NCBI GenBank assembly: GCA_964575745.1
Contig: CAZNRO010000002.1
Coordinates: 1-39,526 of the forward strand
Length of the DNA stretch: 39,526 nucleotides
Direction of reading: 5' to 3'
From: an uncultured Caldisericota bacterium
GTDB taxonomy: Bacteria > Caldisericota > Caldisericia > B22-G15
A model generated the notes under the pieces. That model worked only from the letters and a program-made list of their open reading frames with translations, had not been told where the DNA came from and made no database searches. Made by a program: the position numbers and the translations under genes. Positions 11,479 through 37,809 of the stretch are shown here, one piece after another (the first letter of the stretch is position 1; each line of letters begins with the position of its first letter).

Positions 11479-12219
11479 GTGAATGTTGAAATAAAATCAG
11501 TTAATAAGGGAAGTTCCAATTTTGCCTTCTCCTGCCTTAAAGAGGAAAAGAACAATCCTTTAAACATAACTTCTGAAGTTTCAAGAGAATACTTTAAAAA
11601 TGAAGTTGGAAAAAGTTTTTCGGGCTATCACCTGTTTATAGATAGTAAAATTTCAGGTCATCTCTACTACTCCATATCCCAAAATTCCATTCTTCCATTT
11701 ACTGCAGAGGATAATGTAATCCTTATTATATGTACATGGATATTAAGAAAATATAGAAATATGGGGCTTGGAAAGAGGTTGTTTGAGAGATTAAAAGAGG
11801 ATAATAAAGATATGAAAGGGATAGTGGTTAGAGCAACTACAAGCCCCATATTCATGTATTATACTCATTTCCAGAGATTTGGATTTAGACCGGTTTATCA
11901 GGATAAGGGATATGTGTATATGTATCTTCCTCTGAAGGCTGAAAAGGTTAAGGTTATTATAAGAAAGGAAAAAAATATAAATAAAGAAGGTATATTTATT
12001 CTAAGGAATAATTTTTGTCCCATGATTCCGTTTAAAGTGAAAGGAATTAAAAAAATTGCTACTGAATTAAGTATTCATTATGAAGAAGTGGAAATTAATC
12101 ACGAAAATATAGAAAAGTATGGGATTGATAATGGTGTATTTATAAATGGAATGAAGTATCCATACAATGTTGGAGATAGAGATTTAATCAAGAAAGTTAT
12201 TAATGAGAATCTTCATTAA
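11479..12219 (+). CDS. GNAT-like acetyltransferase domain fused to a thioredoxin-fold (Thioredoxin_3-like) C-terminal domain
   Basis: GTG start 2 nt after the permease stop codon. The GNAT motif-A-like segment is RKYRNMGLGKRLFERL. The C-terminal 80 aa (FCPM ... ENIEKYGIDNGVFINGMKY) resembles small redox-active-disulfide thioredoxin-like proteins but keeps only one Cys. Start and function are uncertain. Confidence 0.45.
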   Translation: MNVEIKSVNKGSSNFAFSCLKEEKNNPLNITSEVSREYFKNEVGKSFSGYHLFIDSKISGHLYYSISQNSILPFTAEDNVILIICTWILRKYRNMGLGKRLFERLKEDNKDMKGIVVRATTSPIFMYYTHFQRFGFRPVYQDKGYVYMYLPLKAEKVKVIIRKEKNINKEGIFILRNNFCPMIPFKVKGIKKIATELSIHYEEVEINHENIEKYGIDNGVFINGMKYPYNVGDRDLIKKVINENLH

Positions 12220-13088
12220 ATTTCTTTATTAAGATAGGTTTCTATTTTATCCCAAAGTTCAATCATTATATTTTTGGCTTTACTCTCTTCTTCATAGATA
12301 ACCACAGGTTTTCCCATTTTTAAGGATTCAACAACCACTGGATCAAAAGGTATCTCTCCAAGAAATATAGCACCCTCTTCTATAGATTCCTTTTTGATCT
12401 TTTCTGACATATCAGGATTTAGGTCAGATTTATTTATTATAATGAATGGTTTTATTTTAAAGTGGCGGAACAATTCCATTAATCTCTTTAAGTCTGAGAG
12501 TCCAGATTCTGTAGGTTCAGTAACTCCAATTGCATATTTTAATCCAGAGAGAGTGGAATTTACAGGACAACCAATTCCTGGTGGTCCATCTACTATGATG
12601 TAGTCTGCTTTTTCCTTTTCTGCATAGTATCTGGCAACATTTCTTATTATAGCCACAAGTTTTCCAGAATTTTCTTCTCCAACACCTAAGAGACCATGAA
12701 CCATCTTTCCATATGGTGTTTCTGATACGAAATACTCACCAGCTTTATTCTCTCTCATCTCTATTACCTTAACGGGACATTGAGTAAAGCAAACTTCACA
12801 ACCTTCACATAGAGCAGTATCTACAACATAATCTGGTGAGATAGCATCAAATCTACAGACATCTATACAGATTCCACACTCTATACAGGAATCCTTATCT
12901 ATATAAGCCTTTTTCATACCAAAGAAATCTTTTTTGATAAGAATTTCAGGTTTTAAAAGAAGATGTAAATCAGGAGCGTCTACATCGCAATCTGCAATTA
13001 TTTTATTCTTTGCAAGAACCGAGAAAGAAGCAGATACAGTAGTCTTTCCTGTTCCTCCCTTTCCACTTACTATGGCAAGTTCAATCAT
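12216..13088 (-). CDS. MinD/ParA-superfamily P-loop ATPase with inserted 2x[4Fe-4S] ferredoxin domain
   Basis: Deviant Walker A GKGGTGKT. Inserted motifs CIECGICIDVC and CEGCEVCFTQCP. Conserved PPGIGCP. 8-nt overlap with the upstream paralogue. Confidence 0.8.
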   Translation of the reverse strand: MIELAIVSGKGGTGKTTVSASFSVLAKNKIIADCDVDAPDLHLLLKPEILIKKDFFGMKKAYIDKDSCIECGICIDVCRFDAISPDYVVDTALCEGCEVCFTQCPVKVIEMRENKAGEYFVSETPYGKMVHGLLGVGEENSGKLVAIIRNVARYYAEKEKADYIIVDGPPGIGCPVNSTLSGLKYAIGVTEPTESGLSDLKRLMELFRHFKIKPFIIINKSDLNPDMSEKIKKESIEEGAIFLGEIPFDPVVVESLKMGKPVVIYEEESKAKNIMIELWDKIETYLNKEI

Positions 13089-13944
13089 TTATTTCCTCCA
13101 GAATTTGGTTGTATAGGTTTAGAAATGTATCTTCCCACTCTTTGTCAATCTCAGATAAAGTTATTCCTTTTGAATAACTTTCAGCTATCCTTCTTTCAAA
13201 AGGAATTTTTAATAAAACTTTAATATTCTCCTTTTTAAGATATTCGTCAAGTTCGTTAAAGCCTTTCATTTCTTTATTAATAATTACCCCAAATTTCTTG
13301 TTTAAATCTTTAACCACCCCTACTGCAATTTTTAAGTCAAAAAGACCGAAAGGTGTAGGTTCGGTAATGAGTATTATGTAATCTCCACCTTTTGATGCCT
13401 CAACCATTGGGCAGGAAGCTCCTGGAGGTGAATCATATATTAATATTTCTCCATCTCTTGTTTCTTCCAGGGATTTTTTCTTTACAATTCTTATAGCACT
13501 TGTTGTTGTAACTTCTGAGATGTTTAATTTTCCTTCAAAGAATTTTAAATTTTCTCTTTTCCCGTATGTAAGAGTTCCTATTTCTCTTGGAATTTCAAAC
13601 ATCGCTTTTTCAGGACAGTTCAGTACACAGTTACCGCAGCTCTTACAGAGCTCAGGAAAAATTTTAACTTCATTGTTAAAAGATAGTACCACTGCTGCGT
13701 TATAGGCACAAACCTCCTGGCATACACCGCAGAAGTTACATTTATCATAATCCACCTTTGGAAAAGGAAGAGCTATGGGCTCTTTTTTTTGTATTTCAGG
13801 TTTGATAAAAATATACCCATTAGGCTCCTCTACATCAAGGTCTATATAAGTCGTTGGGTATTTTTTAGACAAAGAAAGGGCAAGGGAAGTGGAAATCAGA
13901 GTTTTCCCTGTACCTCCCTTGCCCGATGTAACTGTGATTTTCAT
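13081..13944 (-). CDS. MinD/ParA-superfamily P-loop ATPase with inserted 2x[4Fe-4S] ferredoxin domain
   Basis: Deviant Walker A GKGGTGKT. Inserted motifs CNFCGVCQEVC and CKSCGNCVLNCP. Conserved PPGASCP. 4-nt overlap with the upstream NifX-like gene. Confidence 0.8.
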   Translation of the reverse strand: MKITVTSGKGGTGKTLISTSLALSLSKKYPTTYIDLDVEEPNGYIFIKPEIQKKEPIALPFPKVDYDKCNFCGVCQEVCAYNAAVVLSFNNEVKIFPELCKSCGNCVLNCPEKAMFEIPREIGTLTYGKRENLKFFEGKLNISEVTTTSAIRIVKKKSLEETRDGEILIYDSPPGASCPMVEASKGGDYIILITEPTPFGLFDLKIAVGVVKDLNKKFGVIINKEMKGFNELDEYLKKENIKVLLKIPFERRIAESYSKGITLSEIDKEWEDTFLNLYNQILEEIND

Positions 13945-14417
13945 CTATTATCTTTAATCTCTTTCAGGAGATCCTTTATCTCTTCAATCTCTTTTTTTAG
14001 ATTATCCAATTCATCTTTAAGAGAATGAATTTCATACATAGGTGGAACTGGTGGGGGTCCCATAGGTTCAATTCTTCTTGGAGCTTCGTAGGATGGTTGT
14101 GTTCCGCTTTTTGCCATTTCTACAGCATCCTTTACTGTTGTTCCAGGAGGAACTCTTACCAATTCAATTCCTGCACTGGATAGAATTCCTGCACTGTTGG
14201 GACCAAAATCTCCGCTTACGATTTTTCTTACACCTTTACTGATAATAAACTGAGCTGCTTGAATACCTGCACCCTGTGCTGCCATAGCAAATTGATTTGG
14301 AATCACCTCAAAGTCCATGGTATCAGTTTCAACAATTATATAGTATGCACACCTCCCAAATCTTGGATCAATCTGAGACTCAAGAGTCTCTCCTGTTGAT
14401 GTTACCGCTACTCTCAT
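13941..14417 (-). CDS. NifX/NifB-C-terminal-like (dinitrogenase FeMo-cofactor-binding family) domain protein with Pro-rich linker and C-terminal coiled-coil helix
   Basis: The N-terminal about 105 aa (MRVAVTS...HFGR-like FGRCAYYIIV ... GIQAAQFI ... V) match the small NifX-like fold family. A PPPVPP linker and a heptad helix IHSLKDELDNLKKEIEEIKDLLKEIKDNR follow. Confidence 0.7.
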   Translation of the reverse strand: MRVAVTSTGETLESQIDPRFGRCAYYIIVETDTMDFEVIPNQFAMAAQGAGIQAAQFIISKGVRKIVSGDFGPNSAGILSSAGIELVRVPPGTTVKDAVEMAKSGTQPSYEAPRRIEPMGPPPVPPMYEIHSLKDELDNLKKEIEEIKDLLKEIKDNR

Positions 14418-14420
14418 AGT

Positions 14421-14741
14421 TTATCTCCTTTTTAATTCTTCTATTAGTTTTTTAATTGTATCAAGTTCTCCTTTTAAATTTTGTATTTCATTTCTTATAT
14501 TATCTATGTCAGGTGAATATGTTTCATAATTGGTTGTTGGATAAGAGTATCCATAATAATTGGATGGGTAATATCCACCATATCCATAGCCGTAGTAAGG
14601 ATAATTCCATCTCCAACCTCTGGGTAGACCTGTCCAGGGGCAATAGCCAAGTGTTGCTCCCCATCCAAATCCTCTTCCAAATCCACCAAACCATCTTCCG
14701 AAGCCCCAGCCTCTACCAAATCCTCTTCCGTATCCCCACAT
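14421..14741 (-). CDS. DUF5320-like small protein: acid-free Gly/Tyr/Trp/Phe/Arg-rich N-terminal region plus C-terminal coiled-coil helix
   Basis: AAAGGAGGTG Shine-Dalgarno 7 nt upstream of the ATG, with its own promoter. Composition and the GYCP motif resemble the DUF5320 family as I recall it. Both overlapping ORFs in the track are low-complexity shadows of this gene. Confidence 0.6.
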   Translation of the reverse strand: MWGYGRGFGRGWGFGRWFGGFGRGFGWGATLGYCPWTGLPRGWRWNYPYYGYGYGGYYPSNYYGYSYPTTNYETYSPDIDNIRNEIQNLKGELDTIKKLIEELKRR

Positions 14742-14766
14742 TGTCTTTCACCTCCTTTCTATTATT

Positions 14767-14795
14767 AGTATAAATGAATTGAAAAAGATTGTCAA
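14767..14795 (-). promoter_or_regulatory. Near-consensus promoter of the DUF5320/NifX/MinD operon
   Basis: On the minus strand: TTGACA (14795-14790), a 17-nt spacer, then TATACT (14772-14767). The -35 hexamer contains the oraE TGA stop codon (14792-14794). Confidence 0.6.
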
Positions 14796-16990
14796 TATTT
14801 ATTCCTTTCCAAAAATTTCCTTATTATAAAAGATGCAACCTCAATTCCCTTTGTTCCCCTTCCAAAAGCAGCATCAATTCCACAATCGTCCTTTATTTCA
14901 TCTGATAGTTGGGTTCCTCCTCCAATTATCAATAGTTTATCCCTCACACCCTTCTCTATTGCTATCTGGTTTAATTTTTTAAGGTTAATCCTGTGCACAT
15001 TGCCATGAGTCACTGTGGTTGAAGCAAGAACTACCTTTGCTCCTACTTCAATTGCAGCATCAATAACCTTTTTAGGTGGAACACTTGTTCCAAGATATAT
15101 CACTTTAAATCCCCATTTCTCAATCCCTTCATGCTTTATATCAATTATTTCCTTAAGACCTACATTATGTTCGTCCTCGCCAAGAGTTGCAGCAACACAC
15201 TTTATTCCGCCAAGTTCTTTAACTTTTTCTCTTATAATTTCATCTGAAAGGGGTTTTATTTTTTCTTTTACCTTTATTTCACTTTCCTTTATGAAGAACG
15301 GAACCTCTCCTTTGACCTCTATGTAGCTTCCCTCTGCTGGGTGAAGAACCTGTTCATGTACAACTTCAACATTTTTCAAACCAAGCCTTTTTGCAATCTC
15401 TTCTGCTGCATAAGGTGCTTTTTCAGAGCCAATGGGAATAAACATTGATAAAAGAACAACTCCATCATTCTTCCACTGAACCTCTGGTTTAAAAAGTCCT
15501 TCTTTTTCGTACTTCTCCTGCTCTTTAAGTCTTATGTTTACATTGTCTGTTGGATCAAGTTCATCAATGTAAACTATTTTCTCCCTTTTACAAAGTGTAC
15601 AACCATCTATTAAATCACAGGGTTTTTCAATCCCTTCTGGTAAATTGTTGTATCCAAAGTGATGACAAACTGGAGCAAGGTAATCTTCCTCCCTCTTAAC
15701 AACAGTTTCTGCTTCGTCTCCTTCATCTACTGGCCTTTTTATTCCATCTCCCACTCTTTCTGGATACATACCTGAATCAACAAAAAACCCTTCTTCCAAT
15801 GCTTTGAAGTATCCACCAATCTCAATAATTTCCTCAAGGAAGAGTACAGCTCTTTCAATGAGCTCCCTAACCTTTTTCTTCATGTATCCATTCTCTCTTA
15901 TCTTTAAAACTTTCTTTATTCCATCTGAAGCAATGAGAGTTTGCTTTGCAGTATTTATTGCATTAATGGAGTTGTAATGCCATGGAACGTTTCTTCCCTC
16001 GTCTGGTGTTATAGTGGATTGTACATCTACAGATGTTAACCTTGATATAAGTGTATTTAATGTGTGATTTACAGTTGCCTCCCTTGTATCAGACTCAATG
16101 TATTTTGTGTTCATTTGAGCTCTAAATCTGAAACCCTTAAATACCTTCCTTAAAGCTACAGCATAGGGTATATCCAGTCTTAATGAGGGCCATGGAGGAG
16201 CATCTGGCGGGACTGTGGAGAGAGCTATTAAATCTTTTCTCATCCCAACTTTTAGTGAAAACAAAGAATTTATTGCGTGCTGTACAAAGAGTTCTGGCAT
16301 GACTTTAAAACCATACTTTGCAGTTGCGTTTGCGTTGTGAGCACCGTCAATCTGTAGCATATTTGCGCTTGCCATTATTCTTTTTGCTACAGCAGCATCA
16401 ACAAAAGATCTAACTGGATTTATATTCCTGTAAAGGATATTGTATTGGGGATCCTGATGAGCACCATTAACTCCCTCCTCTGCAAACAAAACTGCAATTT
16501 CTGGACCTGCAATGCCAGAAACATAGGAGTGAAAATTTATGGGCCTTCCGACTTCATCTTCTATTAAATCAAGTGCCTTCCTTGTTGCTCTTATTTGTTT
16601 TCTTGTAATGGGTATCCCTCCCACACCCTCAGGAGTGCCTTCAATAAGTCCATCAAAATGACTCTGACCAAGAGTTCTTATTACCATCATGTGATCTGCA
16701 CCATGCCATGCAGCCATTCTCATTCTTCTTATATCATCCTCAAACCTTCCAGAGGCAATTTCCACTGTTATAATGCAGTCAGGTTGGGGATCTATATAAT
16801 CCATCTGGCGGGAAGCCGGAAGAGGTATACTTTTTTTTAGTGGTTTACTTGTTTCAAAGTATGTATGCATTCCTATCTTTTGCTCTGGAATCTTCTCTCT
16901 CCATGTCCACCCATACCTTCTTGGTGTGTAATTTTCAAGATTCTTTAATATCTCTCTTATATCAATTTTTTTGTCTGGCTTTAGCTTCAT
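14792..16990 (-). CDS. oraE: D-ornithine 4,5-aminomutase large subunit (adenosylcobalamin- and PLP-dependent)
   Basis: 732 aa. The N-terminus (IDIREILKNL..YTPRRYGWTWR) resembles characterised OraE. The C-terminal B12-binding Rossmann domain carries DxHxxG (EDEHNVG). It directly follows an OraS-like gene. A GGAGGA Shine-Dalgarno precedes ATG 16990. Confidence 0.85.
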   Translation of the reverse strand: MKLKPDKKIDIREILKNLENYTPRRYGWTWREKIPEQKIGMHTYFETSKPLKKSIPLPASRQMDYIDPQPDCIITVEIASGRFEDDIRRMRMAAWHGADHMMVIRTLGQSHFDGLIEGTPEGVGGIPITRKQIRATRKALDLIEDEVGRPINFHSYVSGIAGPEIAVLFAEEGVNGAHQDPQYNILYRNINPVRSFVDAAVAKRIMASANMLQIDGAHNANATAKYGFKVMPELFVQHAINSLFSLKVGMRKDLIALSTVPPDAPPWPSLRLDIPYAVALRKVFKGFRFRAQMNTKYIESDTREATVNHTLNTLISRLTSVDVQSTITPDEGRNVPWHYNSINAINTAKQTLIASDGIKKVLKIRENGYMKKKVRELIERAVLFLEEIIEIGGYFKALEEGFFVDSGMYPERVGDGIKRPVDEGDEAETVVKREEDYLAPVCHHFGYNNLPEGIEKPCDLIDGCTLCKREKIVYIDELDPTDNVNIRLKEQEKYEKEGLFKPEVQWKNDGVVLLSMFIPIGSEKAPYAAEEIAKRLGLKNVEVVHEQVLHPAEGSYIEVKGEVPFFIKESEIKVKEKIKPLSDEIIREKVKELGGIKCVAATLGEDEHNVGLKEIIDIKHEGIEKWGFKVIYLGTSVPPKKVIDAAIEVGAKVVLASTTVTHGNVHRINLKKLNQIAIEKGVRDKLLIIGGGTQLSDEIKDDCGIDAAFGRGTKGIEVASFIIRKFLERNKY

Positions 16991-17348
16991 GTTTCCTCCG
17001 ATAATATTTAGTTATCTTATCCCAGCCAATCCCTTCTGATAATTCTTTTCCTGCCTTTAGATAATCCTTTTTACTCATCTCAGAATAAAGAAGAACAACT
17101 CTTCCAGCACCATGTCCAAGAAGATTCTCTTTTACCATCCTTTCAACTATTTTCTTTGCTTCAATGCTTGAAAACCCCATACGAAGTAGAACACTTCTTT
17201 CAATAGATGGAGAAGTGTGTGTTCTTGCAAGCTCAACAAGTGGATCAACAATTTTTTCTGTAAGTTCCCAGAAATACTTTATTAATTCCTCTTCATCCAT
17301 GTTTTTTAAGTGCTCTCTTCTTTTTTCATAATCATCTTTTCTATGCAT
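16962..17348 (-). CDS. oraS: D-ornithine 4,5-aminomutase small subunit
   Basis: 128 aa with the segment IVDPLVELARTHTSPSIERSVLLRMGFSS, characteristic of OraS. 29-nt overlap with oraE. Confidence 0.8.
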   Translation of the reverse strand: MHRKDDYEKRREHLKNMDEEELIKYFWELTEKIVDPLVELARTHTSPSIERSVLLRMGFSSIEAKKIVERMVKENLLGHGAGRVVLLYSEMSKKDYLKAGKELSEGIGWDKITKYYRRKHEAKARQKN

Positions 17349-18753
17349 TTATCTTTACTCCTTTCTCAAAGAGGAATTTTTCAACAAAATCTCCACCATC
17401 TTTTACCTCTTCTTTTAAAAACCTTAGCTCTTTGGATGAGATTTCATCTATTCCTTTCAATCTATGTTTAAGGTAGGACCTTTTAATATCTTCCATTGGG
17501 TATTCCTCAAAACCAAGTTCTTTTACATCCTCTGGAATAACAATTTTCTTTCCAGGAATGTTGTCTTTTGGATTTCCAATAGTTACCTCAATTCCCATCT
17601 CTTCAGCAAAGGTTAGTTGAGCATAAGGGTGTTTTCCAGCGCCTGTATATTCTGTTTCCTGAACCACTATTATCTTGTCCTCAGGCAGCTCTCTTGCAAA
17701 AGGTATTGCTGCTGACAGAGAAGTATTTCCAGCAGGTCCTCTCTCTATTCCCTCAATCTGTGCTAAAAGAATTGTTGTGTAAAAAACTTCTCCTTGAGAG
17801 ACAAGAAGGTATCTATCCATATATCTTAGCGGTCTTGCTGCATTTATTGGCACATCCACTCTGTCTGGATTTATTGCAAAAGGTACACCAAAACCTGTGT
17901 GGCCAGTTGTAAAAGATTTTCTATTAAAGTCATAATCGCTTGCCATATGAAGTCCTCTTAGGTCCACTGAAACTCCAATAATCTTTGTATCTTTACACCC
18001 AGCTTCCATTAAGCCTCTTGCAGTCCCTGTTACATTTCCACCCCCTGCATGAGTTACAAGAACATAATCTGGACATCTTCCATATTTTTCCTTTACCTCA
18101 ATACCTATTTCATAACCCAATGTTTCAATCCCTTTTATTCCATAGGGAGTGTAGAGTGATGCATTAAAATAACCAGTTTCGTCAAGGAGAACAAGAGCCC
18201 AATAGAATAGTTCTGGTCCAACAGTAAGTTGCCATACTTCTGCTCCATAAGCTTCACATTTTCTTCCCTTCTCAAGTATTTCAGGTTGACCAATCCCTTT
18301 TGAGTCAAATACCTCTTGAACGATTATGCATTTTAAATTTCTCTGGGCTGCCTGAGATGCAACTGCAGCTCCATAGTTTCCGCTTGTTTCTGCAATGACG
18401 CCTTCATAACCCTTTTTCTTTGCCTCATACACCGATAAGGCAGCTCTCCTTGACTTGAAGGATCCTGAAGCGTTTGCTGCTTCATCTTTCAAAAGAATTT
18501 TTGCTCCAAAACCCTTTCTTGATATTTTTTTAATCACTCTATTTAGGTTTTTCAATTCATACATAGGTGTATTGCCTACTTTTGTTTCATTGAGTATCTT
18601 TCCTACATCTTCTATGGAGTATCCAATAGAACTCATCAATCCTTCATAGTTAAATCCAATTTTCCCAAATCTGAATTTATCGTAATCAAGTCCTCCAAGA
18701 CATTTCTTCATAATTTCTGGACTTTTTCTCATAAACTCTTCAACTTTACCCAT
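17341..18753 (-). CDS. ortB: 2-amino-4-ketopentanoate thiolase beta subunit (PLP-dependent, fold type II)
   Basis: The Trp-synthase-beta-like PLP lysine motif SGSFKSR and a glycine loop HAGGGNVTG are present. I moved the start to ATG 18753, which has GGAGGA 5-6 nt upstream. The track start at 18798 would overlap ortA by 53 nt and has no Shine-Dalgarno. Confidence 0.8.
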   Translation of the reverse strand: MGKVEEFMRKSPEIMKKCLGGLDYDKFRFGKIGFNYEGLMSSIGYSIEDVGKILNETKVGNTPMYELKNLNRVIKKISRKGFGAKILLKDEAANASGSFKSRRAALSVYEAKKKGYEGVIAETSGNYGAAVASQAAQRNLKCIIVQEVFDSKGIGQPEILEKGRKCEAYGAEVWQLTVGPELFYWALVLLDETGYFNASLYTPYGIKGIETLGYEIGIEVKEKYGRCPDYVLVTHAGGGNVTGTARGLMEAGCKDTKIIGVSVDLRGLHMASDYDFNRKSFTTGHTGFGVPFAINPDRVDVPINAARPLRYMDRYLLVSQGEVFYTTILLAQIEGIERGPAGNTSLSAAIPFARELPEDKIIVVQETEYTGAGKHPYAQLTFAEEMGIEVTIGNPKDNIPGKKIVIPEDVKELGFEEYPMEDIKRSYLKHRLKGIDEISSKELRFLKEEVKDGGDFVEKFLFEKGVKINA

Positions 18754-19048
18754 TCTTGTCCTCCAGATATCTTTCTCTAATTTTCTTCCCAATATCAACC
18801 AGTTCTCTTATTGGTTTACCAAAGTTGTGTTTGTAAGGGGGTGAAACCGAAATAAGAATTCCTCGTACTTTTCTTCCAATGGGTGTTTCAATCTCAACAG
18901 TATCTCCAATGTTTGCATCATGCAGTAAATACCCTCTTACCTTTGCCTCAAAAGGAACTTTTTTAGTATCGTTAGGTAAATGTTCTGCTCTTTCCTCTGG
19001 TTTAAGTAAAACCAGTTTTATTTCCACATAATCTCCTTTTCTTACCAT
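18746..19048 (-). CDS. ortA: 2-amino-4-ketopentanoate thiolase alpha subunit
   Basis: 100-aa protein (GDYVEI..LKPEERA..LP.DTKKVP...GY) resembling OrtA. I moved the start to ATG 19048, preceded by AAAGGAGGGGAC. The track's GTG at 19075 lies at the predicted transcription start. Confidence 0.75.
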   Translation of the reverse strand: MVRKGDYVEIKLVLLKPEERAEHLPNDTKKVPFEAKVRGYLLHDANIGDTVEIETPIGRKVRGILISVSPPYKHNFGKPIRELVDIGKKIRERYLEDKNG

Positions 19049-19082
19049 GTCCCCTCCTTTAATCCTCTTTTTCACCTCTACC

Positions 19083-19111
19083 AGTATATAAAAAAGAAAT
19101 CAGCCTGTCAA
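19083..19111 (-). promoter_or_regulatory. Near-consensus promoter of ortA-ortB-oraS-oraE
   Basis: On the minus strand: TTGACA (19111-19106), a 17-nt spacer, then TATACT (19088-19083). The predicted TSS is near 19076, about 28 nt before ATG 19048. Confidence 0.6.
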
Positions 19112-25490: not shown

Positions 25491-28400
25491 TTATGGAGTA
25501 AATATTATTGTAATTTTTCTTTCGCTCCCATTCCACAGTACTTCTGCTCCAAAAGTTTCTGCAATGAACCTCAATGGAACAAAAGTCCTTCCTTTTACAA
25601 TTTTCGGTGCCACGTCAAGGGTAATTTTTTCACCATTAACAATTGCAATTTTACTTCCTATCTGGAGAATGATATTTATATTCTTACTCTCTAAATTTAT
25701 AATTACAGTTTTTGTTTCTCCAATCCAATCAACATCTGCTCCAAATCCTTCTGCTATAAATCTTATGGGAACAAGGGTTCGCCCATTCTCAATGAAAGGG
25801 GAAGCATCAAGTGTATAGCTATCTCCATTTATTTTTGCTTCTTTTTTTCCTATCCAGAGTTCTATTACAATATTTTTCTTTTCGTATATAACTTTTCTAT
25901 TCACTTCTGCAGTATTACCTGCAGAATCATACGCTTTTATATTAATTAAGTTCTCACCAGGGTTTAGTTTTACAATCTTTGCAAATATGCCGCTACTTGA
26001 CACAAGCACTTCTTCTCCATTAATCTCCACTGTAGCATCATTAGATGTATGCCCTCTAATAAGAACAGAGTCTTTATTTGTTTTGTAATTATTAGGTATA
26101 TCAACTTCCAGTGGAAGTGCTGGCTGGATAAGTTTCTTTGTTAAATCATACTCTAAGTAGTAAAATGGTTTATCATCATTGGGATAGTAATCCCAGTTAT
26201 TATCTTCCTCTTCATACCAATACCCTACTCCAACCCAGTAGTTAAATTTTTCAGGGTTACCAATAAGAATTCTCGGGAAGGCTACCTCAACAATATTAGA
26301 ATTATTTCCTATCTTAAAACTCTCGATGTCCTGATACTTTTTCCACTCGCCCTCTGTATATATAGCAACATAGCACTTCATAACTCCTTCCTCATCAGGA
26401 TATATGCCAATATAGAAATCTTCTCCCATACCATTCGTATCTCCTGTTTCTGAATTTTGATCTGCATCGATATCAATTTCAAAAAATACTCCATCCTCAA
26501 ACGGATCATCCCATCCTCTATATGTTGTTATTTTGAAGTAGACATTGGTATCATCGTGCATTACATAAGTATCCTTAAGATCAAATTTTGTTCCTTCATC
26601 TATATCTGTGAACTGATGAATCCATCCTTTTTTCCCAACAATCTGATAAGTAGCAAAATAGGAATCGCTGGGTGCCTGATCCACTATTGGAAATCTTTCT
26701 GGGTCATCACTTACTGCAACCCAATAATTTATAACTTTAGGATTTTCAATAGAAGTAAGGTCTATAGAAAGTATTGCGTAATTTTTACCCTGTTCAATTT
26801 CAAAATCTGGAAGCGAAGCTTCCTCTTTCCATTTATCCTTATCCCATTTATATAAAATTCCTGATAGTTTCCCATAGTTTCCTCCAACAAATAAGGTATA
26901 ATCTTCGCCATTTCCTCCATATGGATAAAGTGGAACACCAGTTGAGGGATTGTTATCGATATCCATTCTTACAATGAATCCGGATCTTAAAGGATTTTGT
27001 ATTGAATTGTATGTTTCAATCTTAAAGAAAATTCTATTTTCGTTAACTCTTACATAGACTTTACTAATATCAATGGTCTTATTCACACTTCTTGGTGATA
27101 TTATAGTGAGATTCCAGTCTGATGAAGTTTCTCTTTTTACGCTGAAGCTCCATGAATATTCTTTATCTAAACTTACTCCAGTTTTTGACATGATTTCTGT
27201 TGTTATATGGACTTCATATGTTGCTCCTTCTTCAAGAGAGCTTTCTGGTGAGAATATAGCTTTATGTAAAGTTTCATCGTAAGAGATAGTTCCAGGTACT
27301 CTTCTTTTACCCTTCATAATAAAAAATGAGTTTTCATTTAATGTATCCTGAATTAAGTCATCTGAGAAAACAACATATACATTTGTATCAGAATTTACAA
27401 TAGAATTATCTTCTGGATAGGTTTCTATAACACTTAAAGGCTTTGTGATTTCTTTAAACATAAATTTTTCATAGTAATTGGCTTCCCCTTGCGGATAATA
27501 GTCAAATTCATCATATATTTCGTCATATATACCTAACCAGTAATTAAATTGATTTCCCTGAAAATACTTACGGGATATAGTAAATACTGCTGTTTTAGAA
27601 TTATTCTCTATACTATAATCCAATACGTCATCTACATACCTCCAGATTTTATCATTCTCATCCCATTTGTTTACATCATGGTAAAATTTATTCATATATG
27701 TTCCAATCCATATAAGATAATCCTCTCCATTTCCATTGTAATCCTTCCCCATGCCTGTATCAGGGTTATTATCTATATCTATATAGAGCCTTATAGAGAA
27801 GTCTGTTTCAGGATTACCCCATTTTCTATAAGAGGTAACTTTAAAGGTAATTGTTTCTTTATCATATTTTATATACAAAGACTTTAAATCTATATGAAAC
27901 CCTTCATCTACATCAGTCCACTGTAAAGTGAAATCTCTTTGGGTTTCACCACCAGCAACTGTAAAGATAAAATTAAAATCTGATGCGAGATAGTTACCAT
28001 CCTTATCCTTAACAGTGGATTTAATTGTCACTGTATATGTTGCACCCCTTTTTAAAGGATTCAATGGTCTGAAATATGCAGTAAATTCATTATCATTGTA
28101 AGTTATGTTTCCTTTTACATACATTTCATCAGTCGATAAAAGAAAGCTATTTTCATTTATGCTCTTTTTATCCATGCTTCTATCAAATTTAACACTTATA
28201 ATTGTGCTTGGAGCCACATCCACTTCGTTGTTTTCTGGTTTTGTGGAAATTATCTGTGGAGATGCGTGCTTTTCTTCAAGGGTATACAAACCTGCTATTG
28301 GATCACCAAATAAATTTAAGTCATAGATATTGTGTGCGAGAGTTTTTCTTATCTGTGTAAACTGGGTATAGTATGTATCTGCATACCACTTGAGGGCATT

Positions 28401-30113
28401 GTTTATTGCTTCTCCTTGAGATTTACCTTCTGAAAGTTCCTTTAGAACAATTGCTCTTAGAGAATAATGAGATGGATTAGTTTCAAAGGAATTATGGGCT
28501 AAATTTGGAAAATACCACCCTGTTCGTGAATTACCTATAAAAGATACCCCTCCGCTCTTTAGAATATTTTTTCCAAGACTGTCTCTATCTGGATAAAGGT
28601 TCAGACAAGAACCAGACACGAATATAGCTGGGGAGTTATCATCAAAATACCTTGTTATCTCATTGGATATAAATGTTTCCCATTTGAATTCATCCCTATC
28701 AGGCTGTCCATTCCTATTGTAGTCTGTTGCCCATATCTTTCTTGCTGTTGAATTCCATGCTCCATGCGCTTCCCATTGGATTAATCCAGGTTTAAGGGTT
28801 CTCTGATAGATTACGAAGTTCTTTGCAGTTATCTCATCGTCAGCTTGATTTGATACAAGTGATGGTTTTATACCTGAAAGCTCATATAAACCTCTATTTG
28901 TAAACCCTTTATCTTTAAAGTAAAGTTCAAATATTCTTTGGTTTATCTCTCCTCCATCTGTATCGTCCTTCCATCTTCCATCCTCTCCGTTCATTGATAA
29001 CCAGGCTCCAAGTGAGAGAATTTTCTTTTTTCTTTCTTCTTCAGTTTTATCCATAAATCTTCTGGATTTTTCAAGAGCATTTTTTATGTTAACTAAATTA
29101 TCAAAGGGTATTCTTCCTACACTTACCTCTGGATGAAAGTCCACATCATCTTCCCCAGGAACTCCAAAGTATCCATCACCATTTGAATCCCAGTCACCAG
29201 TTAAGTCTCTATAATAGAAGTCTGTTGGTATGTTAGAATTTTCTTCATCCCCCTCTTCTCCTGTATACATATATCTCATAGGAATAGACTCAAGAGAACC
29301 AACAAGAAGAACATACTTTATACCGTTTTTGTTATATTCTTCCTTTATAAAGTTTCTTATGCTCTCTGCCTTATCTTTTCCAGTGGAAGGGATATTAGAA
29401 AGTGTAATAACTTCTGTCCTTACTCCTCTTGACTCAAGAAATTTCCTGTGTTCTTCTGCAAGTTTCTTTGCTCTATCTATAGTTATTATTAAATAATCAT
29501 AAGTTGGATTTGAGATAGAGTCAGAGTAAAAGGAGTTAAATGAGTAATAATTCAAAAAATCGTTGTCAAGCTCATTTTTATATACTCTTTCTTTTTTCTC
29601 TGTTCTTAGTGTAATGTCAAATTTAATTTCTTTTACATATGTAAGTTTTGTTCCATCATAGAGGAATGGATAGTATGTAAAGAATAGGAATTTTATACCC
29701 CTTTCGTTTTCAGTTCCGATAAGTTTTAAAGGCGTTAGTACATGTTTGGGTTCTTCGCTATCCTTAAAAACATATCCATTTTCTGAAACAGGATTTTCAC
29801 CAAGAGGAACTCTATACGCTCCCGGAAGCTCAATTTTTTTAACCTCTTTTATTCTATATGAGACAAAACTTGTTCCATTAGGTATTAAAACTTTTATATT
29901 TTTTCGTGGAAGTAGATAGTTATTCTTTGTCCCGATATTTATGAATCCAGGCAGTATAGGTAATACGCAGTTATCTTTGTATTCTTTGAGGGTAAAAGGT
30001 GGTGAGGAAAGTTTGAATGTTAGTTCCGTTGATGCATATATTTTCGGTGAATAGAAGAAAAACAATAAAATTACTACAATTATCAAACTTAAGATTGATT
30101 TTCTTTTCATCAT
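25491..30113 (-). CDS. Large secreted multidomain protein with a peptidase C25 (gingipain-like, clan CD) domain, Ig-like domains, three copies of an unrecognised module and two C-terminal copper-amine-oxidase-N-terminal-like (stalk) domains
   Basis: CGGAGGAC Shine-Dalgarno and a signal peptide. C25-type motifs: YDYLIIT, YVLLVGS..IP, IPTDFYY, VGRIP. Candidate catalytic residues are His450 (WEAHGAW) and Cys503 (VSGSCLN). The C-terminal repeats are GRTLVPIRFIAEGFGADVDW and GRTFVPLRFIAETFGAEVLW. Confidence 0.7.
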   Translation of the reverse strand: MMKRKSILSLIIVVILLFFFYSPKIYASTELTFKLSSPPFTLKEYKDNCVLPILPGFINIGTKNNYLLPRKNIKVLIPNGTSFVSYRIKEVKKIELPGAYRVPLGENPVSENGYVFKDSEEPKHVLTPLKLIGTENERGIKFLFFTYYPFLYDGTKLTYVKEIKFDITLRTEKKERVYKNELDNDFLNYYSFNSFYSDSISNPTYDYLIITIDRAKKLAEEHRKFLESRGVRTEVITLSNIPSTGKDKAESIRNFIKEEYNKNGIKYVLLVGSLESIPMRYMYTGEEGDEENSNIPTDFYYRDLTGDWDSNGDGYFGVPGEDDVDFHPEVSVGRIPFDNLVNIKNALEKSRRFMDKTEEERKKKILSLGAWLSMNGEDGRWKDDTDGGEINQRIFELYFKDKGFTNRGLYELSGIKPSLVSNQADDEITAKNFVIYQRTLKPGLIQWEAHGAWNSTARKIWATDYNRNGQPDRDEFKWETFISNEITRYFDDNSPAIFVSGSCLNLYPDRDSLGKNILKSGGVSFIGNSRTGWYFPNLAHNSFETNPSHYSLRAIVLKELSEGKSQGEAINNALKWYADTYYTQFTQIRKTLAHNIYDLNLFGDPIAGLYTLEEKHASPQIISTKPENNEVDVAPSTIISVKFDRSMDKKSINENSFLLSTDEMYVKGNITYNDNEFTAYFRPLNPLKRGATYTVTIKSTVKDKDGNYLASDFNFIFTVAGGETQRDFTLQWTDVDEGFHIDLKSLYIKYDKETITFKVTSYRKWGNPETDFSIRLYIDIDNNPDTGMGKDYNGNGEDYLIWIGTYMNKFYHDVNKWDENDKIWRYVDDVLDYSIENNSKTAVFTISRKYFQGNQFNYWLGIYDEIYDEFDYYPQGEANYYEKFMFKEITKPLSVIETYPEDNSIVNSDTNVYVVFSDDLIQDTLNENSFFIMKGKRRVPGTISYDETLHKAIFSPESSLEEGATYEVHITTEIMSKTGVSLDKEYSWSFSVKRETSSDWNLTIISPRSVNKTIDISKVYVRVNENRIFFKIETYNSIQNPLRSGFIVRMDIDNNPSTGVPLYPYGGNGEDYTLFVGGNYGKLSGILYKWDKDKWKEEASLPDFEIEQGKNYAILSIDLTSIENPKVINYWVAVSDDPERFPIVDQAPSDSYFATYQIVGKKGWIHQFTDIDEGTKFDLKDTYVMHDDTNVYFKITTYRGWDDPFEDGVFFEIDIDADQNSETGDTNGMGEDFYIGIYPDEEGVMKCYVAIYTEGEWKKYQDIESFKIGNNSNIVEVAFPRILIGNPEKFNYWVGVGYWYEEEDNNWDYYPNDDKPFYYLEYDLTKKLIQPALPLEVDIPNNYKTNKDSVLIRGHTSNDATVEINGEEVLVSSSGIFAKIVKLNPGENLINIKAYDSAGNTAEVNRKVIYEKKNIVIELWIGKKEAKINGDSYTLDASPFIENGRTLVPIRFIAEGFGADVDWIGETKTVIINLESKNINIILQIGSKIAIVNGEKITLDVAPKIVKGRTFVPLRFIAETFGAEVLWNGSERKITIIFTP
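26142..27938 (-). repeat. Three copies of an about 160-aa module (aa 726-886, 998-1158, 1163-1324), with an Ig-like domain between copies 1 and 2
   Basis: Shared pattern: (W/F)TD.DEG...DLK..Y...D....(F)K(V/I)(T/E)(S/T)Y, then (I/M/E)DID(N/A)(N/D)..(T/S)G, then G(N/M)GED(Y/F), then (F/I)NYW(L/V)(G/A)(I/V). Confidence 0.6.
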
Positions 30114-37672: not shown

Positions 37673-37809
37673 CAAATGAATTATACATTATAGATTAATA
37701 AAAGGCATGCCCTCAACTCATAAACTTTTTATGAAGCTTCCTTTTATTTGTGTCCATTTCAACACAGAAATCCTGAAAAACAACAATTATATATGCTAAA
37801 ATTTGATTT

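What the first reader, a model, noticed from the sequence alone, without database searches (positions are those of the whole stretch)
12216..14795. Four-gene operon (DUF5320-like, NifX-like, two ferredoxin-inserted MinD ATPases) with no nitrogenase context: candidate uncharacterised metallocluster-handling system
Seen: the genes at 14421-14741, 13941-14417, 13081-13944 and 12216-13088 are packed behind their own TTGACA-N17-TATACT promoter, with a 3-nt gap and 4-nt and 8-nt overlaps. Both ATPases combine the deviant Walker A GKGGTGKT with an inserted pair of CxxCxxCxxxC(P) motifs and a conserved PPG..CP cysteine. The 158-aa protein has a NifX-like domain. Established: NifX/NafY/NifB-C-terminal domains bind and ferry complex Fe-S cofactors, and MinD/Mrp/NBP35-type ATPases act as Fe-S scaffolds or carriers. 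No nifH/D/K, nifB or nifE/N is present anywhere in the window, so this is not a nif cluster. Inference: this is a self-contained ATP-driven cluster carrier or insertion module whose client protein is unknown. As far as I know this gene combination recurs in anaerobes but has no experimentally assigned function.
Basis: partly seen in the sequence, partly recalled or inferred. Interest (0 to 1): 0.72.

Follow-up and report, generated by a model that had tools for sequence, protein, structure and literature searches.

The report
Split IssA-like iron-sulfur module with ATPases
A four-gene operon in an uncultured vent anaerobe looks like an iron-sulfur storage protein (IssA) split over two genes, followed by the pair of ferredoxin-bearing ATPases known from the 'orange protein' (ORP) complex of sulfate reducers, which suggests a testable job for a very common but unexplained gene cluster.

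Summary
Four co-oriented genes (14741-12216, minus strand) have a 3-nt gap and 4- and 8-nt overlaps, and sit behind a TTGACA-N17-TATACT site. All stated motifs are present, and no nif gene occurs in the 39.5-kb contig.

- **Not an orphan.** In 42 species carrying a MinD-ferredoxin (MinD-Fer4) ATPase, 38 have a second copy. 39 have a NifX-like gene on the same strand within 5 kb, against 0 of 29 control loci. At least 18 have a DUF5320 element.
- **Closest studied system for genes 2-4.** This is the Desulfovibrio ORP complex, whose orp5-orp4-orp3 operon has the same gene order. Its function is unresolved.
- **New link.** The 106-aa DUF5320-like protein carries the motif GWGA.LGYCPWTG.PR, also found in the Gly/Arg/aromatic tail of Thermococcales IssA-type proteins. 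IssA is the thioferrate (iron-sulfide polymer) storage protein.
- **Split architecture.** The 158-aa protein supplies the IssA/ORP-type globular domain and a Pro-rich linker. Both small proteins end in homologous helices.

Best reading: a two-part IssA-like iron-sulfide binding protein served by an ATP-gated, cluster-bearing ATPase heterodimer. The homology and gene linkage are shown; the mechanism is inferred. I rate it a new variant of a known kind, of moderately high interest.

The parts
14767..14795 (-). Sigma-70-like promoter TTGACA-N17-TATACT. The -35 hexamer overlaps the oraE stop codon.
   Evidence: It is an 11/12 match, one of two on this strand in an 8-kb scan. A consensus match is not proof of function.
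14421..14741 (-). Gene 1: 106-aa DUF5320-like protein, an IssA-tail homologue. It has a disordered Gly/Arg/aromatic N-terminal part (residues 1-75) and a C-terminal helix.
   Evidence: Pfam DUF5320 scores 22.7 bits, below the cutoff of 27. Its homologues are PF17253 proteins. The AF2 model shows no regular structure in residues 1-75 and one helix at 79-105. Residues 1-75 contain 21 Gly, 6 Arg+Lys, 27 aromatic residues and 1 Cys, with pI 9.4.
14607..14678 (-). Core motif GRGFGWGATLGYCPWTGLPRGWRW (residues 22-45) with invariant Cys34. The same motif occurs in IssA-type tails.
   Evidence: The motif is invariant in alignment A1. It is present as GWGA[RQ]LGYCPWTG[QM]P in 7 of the 8 complete Thermococcales-type IssA-like proteins (the eighth, L094, has GYCPEPG). 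BLASTP gives E = 5e-6. The A1 HMM scores the tails 15-32 bits against a maximum of 9.1 in 4000 shuffles.
14427..14507 (-). C-terminal amphipathic helix of gene 1 (residues 79-105), a candidate coiled-coil partner of the gene 2 helix.
   Evidence: AF2 predicts a helix with pLDDT 81-87. It aligns without gaps to the 158-aa C-terminus with score 66, against 25.5 +/- 5.3 for shuffles (0 of 2000 reach it).
14103..14417 (-). Gene 2, residues 1-105: globular NifX-like (IPR003731/PF02579) domain of the ORP/MTH1175/IssA type, with the DPRFGRC motif.
   Evidence: Pfam scores 73 bits. PDB hits are 2WFB ORP, 1EO1 MTH1175 and 1RDU TM1290 only. It is 34% identical to an IssA-like globular domain, E = 8e-16. 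The Cys after FGR is conserved in 119 of 120 homologues.
14034..14102 (-). Gene 2, residues 106-128: Pro-rich linker (8 Pro in 23 residues).
   Evidence: The IssA paper reports 9 Pro in 23 residues at the same position (PMC5524996).
13944..14033 (-). Gene 2, residues 129-158: C-terminal helix homologous to the DUF5320 C-terminal helix.
   Evidence: My DUF5320-tail HMM hits it at 20 bits.
13081..13944 (-). Gene 3: MinD-Fer4 ATPase of type A (287 aa). It has deviant Walker A GKGGTGKT, a 2x[4Fe-4S] ferredoxin insert (residues ~62-115) and Cys178 in switch II.
12216..13088 (-). Gene 4: MinD-Fer4 ATPase of type B (290 aa). Same architecture, plus a DCD Cys in switch I and an EENSGKLV motif.
   Evidence: The AF2 model has pLDDT 95. 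The closest folds are archaeal MinD, FlhG, FleN, HypB-Mrp, ApbC and NifH, and none has the ferredoxin insert.

Best explanation
The block encodes an iron-sulfur handling module built from two known but separately studied pieces.

**Genes 1 and 2 together resemble IssA, the thioferrate-binding iron-sulfur storage protein of Pyrococcus, divided over two polypeptides.**
- Gene 2 supplies the globular IPR003731 domain and the Pro-rich linker.
- Gene 1 supplies the disordered cationic Gly/Arg/aromatic segment with its single invariant Cys (GYCPWTG).
- Each ends in a homologous amphipathic helix.
- I infer that the two helices pair as a coiled coil and rebuild an IssA-like unit. That unit would bind an anionic inorganic iron-sulfide species or a labile Fe-S cluster.

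**Genes 3 and 4 are the A and B paralogues of the Orp4/Orp3-type MinD-Fer4 ATPases.**
- I infer that they form an ATP-dependent heterodimer through the signature lysine of the deviant Walker A motif.
- Its four [4Fe-4S] clusters and switch-II cysteines would couple nucleotide state to electron or cluster transfer.
- This would load the store, or reductively release iron and sulfide from it for cluster assembly.

**Shown:** the gene architecture, the homologies, motif conservation and the cross-phylum gene linkage.
**Inferred:** coiled-coil pairing, the ligand, the heterodimer, and the direction and chemistry of the ATP-dependent step.
For: **Operon anatomy.**

**Fusion evidence.** Many homologues of gene 2 are single proteins carrying both PF02579 and PF17253: NifX-like domain, Gly/Arg-rich segment, then helix. 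By my motif-based sorting of the top 120, 46 are of this type, 15 have a Gly-rich tail only, and 5 have a helix only like the window.

**IssA link.**
- Proteins were fetched solely by the published PF2025 N-terminal peptide.
- They also match its internal PVEEAIKVA peptide.
- They carry a Pro-rich, Gly/Arg/Trp-rich tail ending in GWGA[RQ]LGYCPWTG, their only Cys.
- That is the invariant core of gene 1's subfamily.
- BLASTP gives E = 5e-6. The A1 HMM gives 15-32 bits on all 8 complete tails, against at most 9.1 bits in 4000 composition-matched shuffles.
- The gene 2 domain is 34% identical to the IssA-like domain, E = 8e-16.
- Composition and Pro-linker match the IssA description (PMC5524996).
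- Gene 1 is predicted disordered apart from one helix.

**Helices.** The two C-terminal helices are homologous. Helix-bearing NifX-like genes tend to sit beside stand-alone DUF5320 genes: 7 of 8 loci against 13 of 38, p = 0.008. In the unbiased subset p = 0.06.

**Modularity.** L012 carries tail+helix, globular+helix and globular+tail genes side by side, upstream of the ATPase pair.

**ATPase pair.**
- A and B orthogroups are conserved across Bacteria and Archaea.
- The motifs are invariant.
- Operon-mates elsewhere are Mrp/NUBPL, NifU_N, FeoB and DUF134.
- Orp3 and Orp4 co-purify with Orp8 and receive Fe-S clusters from MrpORP (PMC6345978).
- Per the authors' suggestion, the orp genes are expressed only at very low redox potential (PMC8359166).
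Against: - The IssA-tail similarity rests on a motif of about 25 residues. In an unbiased search of 1.84 billion representatives with the A1 profile, the longer hits I inspected were not IssA-type proteins, and the 15-32-bit tail scores lie below the weakest listed hit (35.6 bits). Pfam DUF5320 does not hit the IssA-like tails.
- I did not have the P. furiosus PF2025 sequence itself, only Thermococcales-type proteins matching its published peptides.
- IssA-like loci show no MinD-Fer4 gene in the flanks held. Two NifX-DUF5320 fusion loci also lack the ATPases. The two halves of the proposed system can therefore work apart.
- Only 18 of 42 ATPase loci scored a DUF5320 element with my HMMs. Pfam found 7 more DUF5320 proteins among operon-mates.
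- The gene 2 clade has a conserved Cys (FGRC) that the IssA-type proteins lack. This may mean it binds a discrete cluster rather than a polymer.
- D. gigas ORP binds a Mo-Cu cluster.
- The authors of the 2021 Mossbauer study suggest sequestration/detoxification rather than storage: IssA may coordinate insoluble iron sulfide formed as a byproduct (PMC8219758).
- No expression or biochemical data exist for this operon.
Confidence: 0.5

Rival explanations
1. A generic ATP-driven Fe-S cluster carrier or insertase for one specific, unidentified client enzyme. The NifX-like protein shuttles a finished cluster, and the ATPases act as scaffold and chaperone like Mrp/NBP35. DUF5320 is only an adaptor.
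For: NifX-family domains carry clusters (established knowledge). Operon-mates elsewhere include Mrp/NUBPL and NifU_N scaffolds. The conserved FGRC Cys in the gene 2 clade parallels the CxHFGHCE motif of the MrpORP Di-Nase domain, which binds a cluster (PMC6345978).
Against: No conserved client gene appears next to the module in 42 species, and the flanks differ completely between loci. The ATPases lack the Mrp CxxC bridging motif and score far below the ApbC and MrpORP cutoffs. This reading does not explain the IssA-type tail motif.
Confidence: 0.25
2. An ORP-type complex whose main role is spatial: cell division or polar positioning, as first proposed for Desulfovibrio. The MinD-like ATPases would act as positioning ATPases and the Fe-S clusters as redox sensors.
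For: The closest folds are archaeal MinD, FlhG and FleN. The ORP proteins were described as putatively involved in septum positioning, and MrpORP localises to a pole (PMC3897727; PMC6345978).
Against: No MinC/MinE, FtsZ or flagellar partner lies in the window. The C-termini are acidic helices rather than a basic membrane-targeting helix (read from the sequences; helix 270-289). minD model scores are 45-69 bits against cutoffs above 200. The neighbourhood is enriched for Fe/S genes.
Confidence: 0.1
3. A carrier and assembly system for a heterometallic (Mo/W-Cu-S) cluster, like the one found on the D. gigas orange protein.
For: The best PDB hit of gene 2 is ORP 2WFB, E = 2.4e-16. ORP binds S2MoS2CuS2MoS2 non-covalently (PMC6345978).
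Against: No molybdate, tungstate or copper transport or pterin genes occur in the window, and none is among the 25 commonest operon-mate families. MTH1175 (placed with IssA in PMC8351635) and TM1290 score almost the same as ORP. The link to the IssA tail points to iron sulfide.
Confidence: 0.1
4. Ordinary nitrogenase accessory genes separated from a nif cluster that lies outside the window.
For: Only the Pfam name of the domain (Nitro_FeMo-Co), a weak Fer4_NifH hit in the A-type ATPase, and the NifH-like features of the ATPase family.
Against: No nif gene occurs in 39.5 kb, and no longer contig carrying these proteins is on record. The same module recurs in 42 species with no nitrogenase family among the 25 commonest operon-mate families. 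No NifX, NafY or NifB chain is hit at E < 0.01.
Confidence: 0.02

Closest known systems
[quoted passage not shown]
   Same: It has two paralogous MinD-Fer4 ATPases preceded by a NifX-like gene in the same order as orp5-orp4-orp3. The gene 2 domain's best solved relative is ORP (2WFB). It is restricted to anaerobes.
   Different: The window has no MrpORP, no second divergent operon, and no sigma-54/OrpR control; it has a sigma-70-like promoter instead. It has only one NifX-like gene. The ORP papers read here do not mention a DUF5320/IssA-tail gene. The ORP function is itself unresolved.
IssA, iron-sulfur storage protein A of Pyrococcus furiosus (PF2025, Q8TZG9), which binds thioferrate
   Same: It shares the IPR003731 globular domain, a Pro-rich linker (8 of 23 against 9 of 23 Pro), and a cationic Gly/Arg/aromatic disordered segment with a single Cys in the motif GWGA.LGYCPWTG.
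   Different: In the window these features lie on two polypeptides, each with an added C-terminal helix. The globular domain has an extra conserved Cys (FGRC). The genes are linked to MinD-Fer4 ATPases, which the IssA-like loci examined lack.
Pfam DUF5320 (PF17253), small proteins of unknown function
   Same: It has a Gly/Arg-rich N-terminal part with a conserved G[YF]C motif and a C-terminal coiled-coil helix. It is frequently next to, or fused with, NifX-like domains.
   Different: Gene 1 belongs to a rare aromatic subfamily: 99 representatives in 1.84 billion at E <= 0.001. It lacks the canonical MPxGDGTGPxGxGPMTGR start and scores below the Pfam cutoff. P0327 is a hybrid of the two types.
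NifH/BchL-type Fe proteins and Mrp/NBP35/ApbC Fe-S carriers (SIMIBI ATPases that hold clusters)
   Same: It has a deviant Walker A with signature lysine, a predicted nucleotide-dependent dimer, and a Cys seven residues after the Walker B Asp, as in NifH D125..C132 (spacing argument, with the NifH sequence recalled from memory).
   Different: The clusters sit in an inserted 2x[4Fe-4S] ferredoxin domain, not at a bridging site. There is no Cys97 equivalent and no Mrp CxxC. Foldseek ranks MinD, FlhG and FleN above NifH.

Membership tests
IssA (Vaccaro et al. 2017) | IPR003731/PF02579 globular domain related to that of IssA | tested here: met
   PF02579 scores 73 bits. The domain is 34% identical to a Thermococcales-type IssA-like domain, E = 8e-16. 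Clade placement by phylogeny was not done.
IssA (Vaccaro et al. 2017) | [quoted passage not shown] | tested here: not met
   The last 30 residues of the 158-aa protein have 0 Gly and pI 4.9. An equivalent segment lies in the separate 106-aa protein: residues 1-75 have 28% Gly, pI 9.4 and 1 Cys.
IssA (Vaccaro et al. 2017) | Tail sequence motif of Thermococcales IssA (GWGA.LGYCPWTG) | tested here: met
   The motif is present in gene 1. It is a short motif, and the test used IssA-like proteins identified by published PF2025 peptides, not PF2025 itself.
IssA (Vaccaro et al. 2017) | Binds thioferrate and forms nanoparticles; induced by sulfur or sulfide | not testable with these tools
   This needs anaerobic purification, XAS/Mossbauer/EPR, TEM and expression data.
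ORP complex (Desulfovibrio) | Two paralogous MinD-type ATPases, each with two [4Fe-4S] ferredoxin motifs | tested here: met
ORP complex (Desulfovibrio) | Adjacent single-domain NifX-like (Di-Nase) protein, in the order NifX-like -> ATPase -> ATPase | tested here: met
   The operon order orp5-orp4-orp3 is from PMC8359166. The best PDB hit is ORP 2WFB. Direct comparison with the DVU2103-2105 sequences was not possible.
ORP complex (Desulfovibrio) | MrpORP (Mrp/NBP35-Di-Nase fusion) and a second divergent operon under sigma-54/OrpR control | tested here: not met
   There is no other P-loop, NifX-like or sigma-54 activator gene in the window, and the promoter is sigma-70-like. 16 of 42 related loci do carry a MinD/Mrp-like ATPase without a ferredoxin insert.
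Pfam DUF5320 (PF17253) | Score at or above the gathering threshold of 27 bits | tested here: inconclusive
   The score is 22.7 bits. Most homologues are annotated PF17253. A hybrid protein, P0327, links the subfamily to canonical members.
NifX/NafY/NifB-C-terminal cofactor carriers of nitrogenase | nif gene context and closest similarity to NifX/NafY | tested here: not met
   No nif genes are present. The PDB search hits only ORP, MTH1175 and TM1290 at E < 0.01.
MinD (cell-division ATPase) | Reaches the minD models' cutoffs; has MinC/MinE partners and a basic C-terminal membrane-targeting helix | tested here: not met
   TIGR01969 scores 45-69 bits against a cutoff of 202. No partner genes are present. 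The C-termini are acidic helices (read from the sequences; helix). The ferredoxin insert is absent from all solved MinD structures.
Mrp/NBP35/ApbC Fe-S carriers | CxxC bridging-cluster motif and equivalog score | tested here: not met
   ApbC scores 25 bits against 348, and MrpORP 40-54 bits against 450. The only conserved non-ferredoxin Cys are the switch-II Cys and a partly conserved DCD Cys.

The most novel reading that the evidence does not exclude
The widespread NifX-like/DUF5320/MinD-Fer4 clusters of anaerobes, including the ORP complex, would be a dedicated iron-sulfide storage system. A disordered Gly/Arg/aromatic protein phase would scaffold a thioferrate-like mineral, as IssA does. 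The ferredoxin-bearing ATPase heterodimer would be an ATP-driven redox motor, analogous in logic to the nitrogenase Fe protein, that loads the mineral or reductively dissolves it to feed Fe-S cluster assembly. In effect this would be an anaerobic counterpart of ferritin with its own energy-dependent release machinery.
Probability: 0.25. Interest if true: 0.8.

Novelty: new variant of a known kind. Interest (0 to 1): 0.62.

Why it matters
MinD-Fer4 ATPases are very common in anaerobes. They are annotated only as 'ATP-binding protein' or '(4Fe-4S)-binding protein'.

Their one studied example, the ORP complex, still has no agreed function. How cells release iron from IssA-type thioferrate stores is also unknown.

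Two results connect these literatures. The DUF5320 partner carries the IssA tail motif, and DUF5320 is repeatedly fused to or adjacent to the NifX-like partner of these ATPases. Together they give a concrete hypothesis that can be tested biochemically, for a cluster found from Caldisericota-like bacteria to Thermoplasmatota and Bathyarchaeia.

The work also gives DUF5320 a first functional lead.

Tried and rejected
1. **Authentic PF2025 sequence not obtained.** I used the published cloning primers to fetch Thermococcales-type proteins from metagenomes instead.
2. **Library-wide A1 profile search.** It found 99 mostly stand-alone DUF5320 proteins. The longer hits I inspected were not IssA-type, so the tail link is significant only in the targeted comparison.
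3. **Pfam DUF5320 on IssA-like tails.** No hit.
4. **hhalign of the ATPase profile against Azotobacter NifH, recalled from memory.** It aligned only the C-terminal third. The equivalence of the switch-II Cys with NifH Cys132 rests on motif spacing alone.
5. **Fievet et al. 2011 (PMC3133258).** Not held. ORP facts come from later papers by the same group.
6. **Heterodimer or coiled-coil modelling.** Not possible because only single chains can be predicted.
7. **Functional link to the upstream ornithine operon.** Rejected, because the flanks differ completely in other species.
8. **Mirror ORF 14456-14773 (+).** Rejected as a shadow of gene 1.
9. **P0003 (NifX N-terminus fused to MinD-Fer4 C-terminus).** Treated as a deletion or assembly artefact, not as an architecture.

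Full report
**1. Observation**

The four ORFs lie exactly where stated on the minus strand:
- 14421-14741, 106 aa
- 13941-14417, 158 aa
- 13081-13944, 287 aa
- 12216-13088, 290 aa

They are separated by a 3-nt gap, a 4-nt overlap (ATGA) and an 8-nt overlap. TTGACA-N17-TATACT lies at 14795-14767, followed by AGGAGG and the first ATG.

In an 8-kb scan this site is one of only two 11/12 promoter-like matches on that strand. The other has identical hexamers and lies just upstream of ortA (18746-19075). The total number of promoter-like sites is no higher than in shuffled sequence, so position rather than count is the argument. The oraE stop codon overlaps the -35 hexamer and no terminator-like site intervenes, so read-through from the upstream operon cannot be excluded.

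**2. Domain content**

Pfam gives the following:
- Nitro_FeMo-Co (PF02579) at 73 bits for the 158-aa protein.
- CbiA/ParA plus two 4Fe-4S motifs for both ATPases.
- DUF5320 at 22.7 bits, below the cutoff of 27, for the 106-aa protein.

NCBIfam assigns no equivalog to any of the four. The minD, ApbC and MrpORP models score far below their cutoffs. The 41 homologues of the 106-aa protein are mostly annotated PF17253, so 'DUF5320-like' is fair.

**3. Surroundings and source**

- Upstream on the same strand is a complete ornithine-fermentation set: OrtA, OrtB, OraS and OraE. OraE scores 1262 bits against its equivalog.
- Downstream, a GNAT-like gene converges and overlaps the last stop codon by 4 nt.
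- The rest of the window encodes ABC transporters, PfkB, a C25-type peptidase, Mfd, Pth, L25 and similar proteins.
- There is no nif, Mrp or sigma-54 activator gene.
- My own HMMs for the four families hit only these four genes in the window.
- The contig is an NCBI metagenome-assembled genome (MAG) contig, and no longer contig carrying these proteins is on record. It is labelled 'Firmicutes bacterium'. Relatives in the same 90%-identity clusters are labelled Caldiserica/Caldisericia MAGs.
- Identical blocks occur in metagenome contigs that include vent-derived samples (HyVt isolate of the same sample).

**4. Is the combination more than chance?**

A scan of one genome per GTDB species, using an alignment of eight MinD-Fer4 proteins, returned 71 loci. 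Of these, 42 carried a full MinD-Fer4 gene. They came from very diverse anaerobes:
- Desulfobacteraceae, Zixibacteria, Dehalococcoidia, Clostridia
- Bacteroidales, Synergistaceae, Syntrophus, Aminicenantes
- Thermoplasmatota, Bathyarchaeia, Micrarchaeota, Methanomethylicota
- Peptoclostridium litorale, Plebeiibacterium marinum

The other 29 loci matched only the P-loop. They are generic MinD/ParA genes and serve as controls. I called ORFs and searched them with HMMs I built.

| Feature near the anchor | MinD-Fer4 loci (n = 42) | Control loci (n = 29) | Fisher p |
|---|---|---|---|
| Second MinD-Fer4 (pair or fusion) | 38 | not applicable | |
| NifX-like, same strand, within 5 kb | 39 | 0 | 7e-17 |
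| DUF5320 element | 18 (stand-alone in 16, fused to NifX-like in 8; some loci have both) | 1 | 1e-4 |
| All four families | 15 | not applicable | |

- Of the three loci without a NifX-like gene, two are truncated contigs.
- The single control hit is also on a truncated contig.
- A Pfam scan found 7 more DUF5320 proteins that my HMMs had missed.

That Pfam scan covered 150 further same-strand operon-mates. The commonest families were Mrp/NUBPL-type ParA (11), metallo-beta-lactamase (9), DUF5320 (7), DUF134 (7), NifU_N (6), ARMT1-like (5), further Nitro_FeMo-Co (5), Fer4 (5), radical SAM (5), CGGC (4) and FeoB (3). No nitrogenase family is among the top 25. The flanks beyond the module differ completely between species.

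**5. The ATPases**

The first and second ATPase genes form two orthologous groups that are conserved from Bacteria to Archaea:
- Type A carries DLDVEEPN and DSPPGTSCP.
- Type B carries ADCDVDAPDLHLLLKPE, EENSGKLV and DGPPGIGCP.

Conservation across 80 members:
- 100%: GKGGxGK, all eight ferredoxin Cys, and D35, D37, D171, E195 and N223.
- 96%: the Cys seven residues after the Walker B Asp.
- 67-78%: a DCD Cys in switch I.

Other findings:
- An AF2 model of protein B is confident, with pLDDT 95.
- Its nearest solved folds are archaeal MinD, FlhG, FleN, HypB-Mrp, ApbC, NifH and BchL, at a query TM-score of about 0.6. None contains the ferredoxin insert.
- Both paralogues keep the signature lysine and catalytic aspartates. 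This fits an ATP-dependent A-B sandwich dimer, but the dimer is inferred by analogy.

**6. The NifX-like protein**

- Its only solved relatives at E < 0.01 are D. gigas ORP (2WFB), MTH1175 and TM1290. MTH1175 is the protein the IssA authors used as their structural template. NafY, NifX and NifB are not hit.
- 119 of the top 120 homologues keep the Cys in DPRFGRC.
- Many homologues of 175-215 aa carry both PF02579 and PF17253 in a single chain. Their layout is globular domain, GMGRG-type Gly/Arg-rich segment, Pro-rich stretch, then a C-terminal helix. This is fusion evidence that genes 1 and 2 act together.
- The window protein keeps the Pro-rich linker (8 Pro in 23 residues) and the helix, but has no Gly/Arg segment. 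By my motif-based sorting, that layout is seen in 5 of the 120.

**7. The DUF5320-like protein and IssA**

Its subfamily has an invariant core, GRGxGxGA.LGYCPWTG.PRGWRW, including Cys34. A Tyr/Gly/Pro-rich stretch and a helix follow. AF2 predicts no regular structure for residues 1-75 and one helix at 79-105.

The IssA paper describes P. furiosus IssA as follows (PMC5524996):
- an IPR003731 domain;
- a Pro-rich region with 9 Pro in 23 residues;
- a cationic, aromatic, Gly-rich disordered tail;
- the protein's only Cys in that tail, which is proposed to wrap anionic thioferrate.

I could not retrieve PF2025 itself. The paper's cloning primers encode MKIAIPTNGGG and PVEEAIKVAT. A degenerate DNA pattern for the first peptide found nine metagenome loci. 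Their products are 192-210 aa, apart from L091, which is cut at the contig end. They also contain PVEEAIKVA at the expected position. They end with Pro/Tyr-rich sequence, GWGRGWGRG repeats and GWGA[RQ]LGYCPWTG[QM]P.RR...GWW, which holds their single Cys. L094 deviates, with GYCPEPG.

This is the same core motif as in gene 1. The supporting statistics are:
- BLASTP of the motif segment gives E = 5e-6 for the single comparison.
- The A1 HMM scores all eight complete tails at 15-32 bits. The maximum in 4000 composition-preserving shuffles is 9.1 bits.
- The 158-aa globular domain is 34% identical to the IssA-like domain, E = 8e-16.

Caveats:
- The shared motif is short.
- An unbiased search of 1.84 billion representatives gave 99 hits, mostly stand-alone DUF5320 proteins. 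The longer hits I inspected were not IssA-type, and the tail scores lie below the weakest listed hit.
- Pfam DUF5320 does not hit the IssA-like tails.

Canonical stand-alone DUF5320 genes next to the ATPase clusters share a G[YF]C core (MPGGDGTGPxGMGPMTGRxxG[FY]CAGY) and Gly/Arg/aromatic repeats. P0327 is a hybrid of the two types.

**8. Split architecture**

- The C-terminal helices of genes 1 and 2 align without gaps. The score is 66, against 25.5 +/- 5.3 for shuffles, and 0 of 2000 shuffles reach it.
- L012, a bacterial locus with unrelated flanks, has tail+helix (110 aa), globular+helix (148 aa) and globular+Gly/Arg tail (165 aa) genes in a row before the A and B ATPases.
- Across 46 loci, NifX-like genes that bear a helix sit beside stand-alone DUF5320 genes in 7 of 8 cases, against 13 of 38 otherwise (p = 0.008). 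Leaving out the loci found through DUF5320 itself gives p = 0.06, so this is only suggestive.

**9. Mechanism**

Shown: the modules, their homologies and their linkage.

Inferred:
1. The helices pair, so that genes 1 and 2 form a two-part IssA-like unit.
2. That unit binds an anionic iron-sulfide species or a labile cluster. Candidate contacts are the globular domain (FGRC Cys, acidic residues) and the cationic/aromatic tail with its Cys.
3. The A-B ATPase dimer couples ATP to electron or cluster transfer into or out of that store.

The IssA authors reported cluster assembly from IssA under reducing conditions (DTT). That makes a reductive, ATP-gated release plausible. According to its authors, Desulfovibrio expresses the orp operons only at very low redox potential (PMC8359166). 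M. voltae raises two IssA-clade proteins when grown on pyrite (PMC8516115).

Points against a strict storage model:
- IssA-like loci and some NifX-DUF5320 fusion loci lack the ATPases nearby.
- Many ATPase loci showed no DUF5320 element.
- D. gigas ORP binds a Mo-Cu cluster.
- The authors of the 2021 Mossbauer study suggest sequestration/detoxification rather than storage: IssA may coordinate insoluble iron sulfide formed as a byproduct (PMC8219758).

**10. Comparison and novelty**

For genes 2-4 the closest system is the ORP complex. The ATPase pair and gene order are the same, but MrpORP, the second operon and sigma-54 control are absent. For genes 1-2 the closest is IssA, with the defining tail on a separate polypeptide.

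In the searchable library DUF5320 appears in only two unrelated papers, and no paper links IssA with MinD-type ATPases. That library is incomplete, so prior notice elsewhere cannot be excluded.

I rate this a new variant of a known kind. The module is ordinary in the sense of being widespread. The IssA-DUF5320-ORP connection gives it a concrete, testable function.

Noticed in passing
window 14792-19111 (- strand): A complete ornithine-fermentation set, ortA-ortB-oraS-oraE, lies directly upstream. Its TTGACA-N17-TATACT site at 19111-19083 has the same hexamers as the site before the four-gene block. A terminator-like hairpin at 19121-19099 overlaps that upstream promoter.
   Followed up: partly
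P0003 (homologue of window 13941-14417; 50.8-kb Logan contig): This 152-aa protein joins the first ~84 residues of the NifX-like protein in frame to the last ~65 residues of MinD-Fer4 B. It is either a natural deletion of both ATPases in a close relative or an assembly artefact.
   Followed up: no
window 11479-12219 (+): A 246-aa gene with only sub-threshold GNAT hits converges on MinD-Fer4 B and overlaps its stop codon by 4 nt. No terminator-like site lies between them.
   Followed up: partly
L012:6001-8999: A bacterial locus with LPS and miaA flanks carries three modular versions in a row before the ATPase pair: DUF5320 tail+helix (110 aa), NifX-like+helix (148 aa), and NifX-like+Gly/Arg tail (165 aa).
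   Followed up: yes
L090-L098 (IssA-like loci from metagenomes): In eight of the nine loci (L091 is cut at the contig end), the Thermococcales-type IssA-like gene is followed a few hundred bases downstream by a second NifX-like gene of 150-187 aa. No MinD-Fer4 gene lies in the flanks held.
   Followed up: partly
P0327 (158 aa, representative library): A hybrid DUF5320 protein with the canonical MPxGDxTGPxGxGPMTGR start and also the GAQLGYCPWTGMPRGWRW core of the aromatic subfamily. It ties the two subfamilies together.
   Followed up: partly
Related loci L020-L070 (operon-mates of MinD-Fer4 pairs): DUF134 (a putative DNA-binding protein), metallo-beta-lactamase-fold, ARMT1-like and CGGC-domain genes recur in the same operons. 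None of them is present in the window.
   Followed up: no
Literature: M. voltae Mvol_0689 and Mvol_0693: The two IssA-clade proteins that rise on pyrite are four locus tags apart. The genes between them could be a MinD-Fer4 pair, but I could not check this.
   Followed up: no
window 25491-30113 (-): A 1540-aa protein combines Peptidase_C25, Big_5, Glucodextran_B and Cu_amine_oxidN1 domains. It is probably a large surface protease.
   Followed up: no
window 37214-37675 (-) and 37810-38748 (+): ORFs of 153 and 312 aa have no Pfam match at E <= 1e-4.
   Followed up: no
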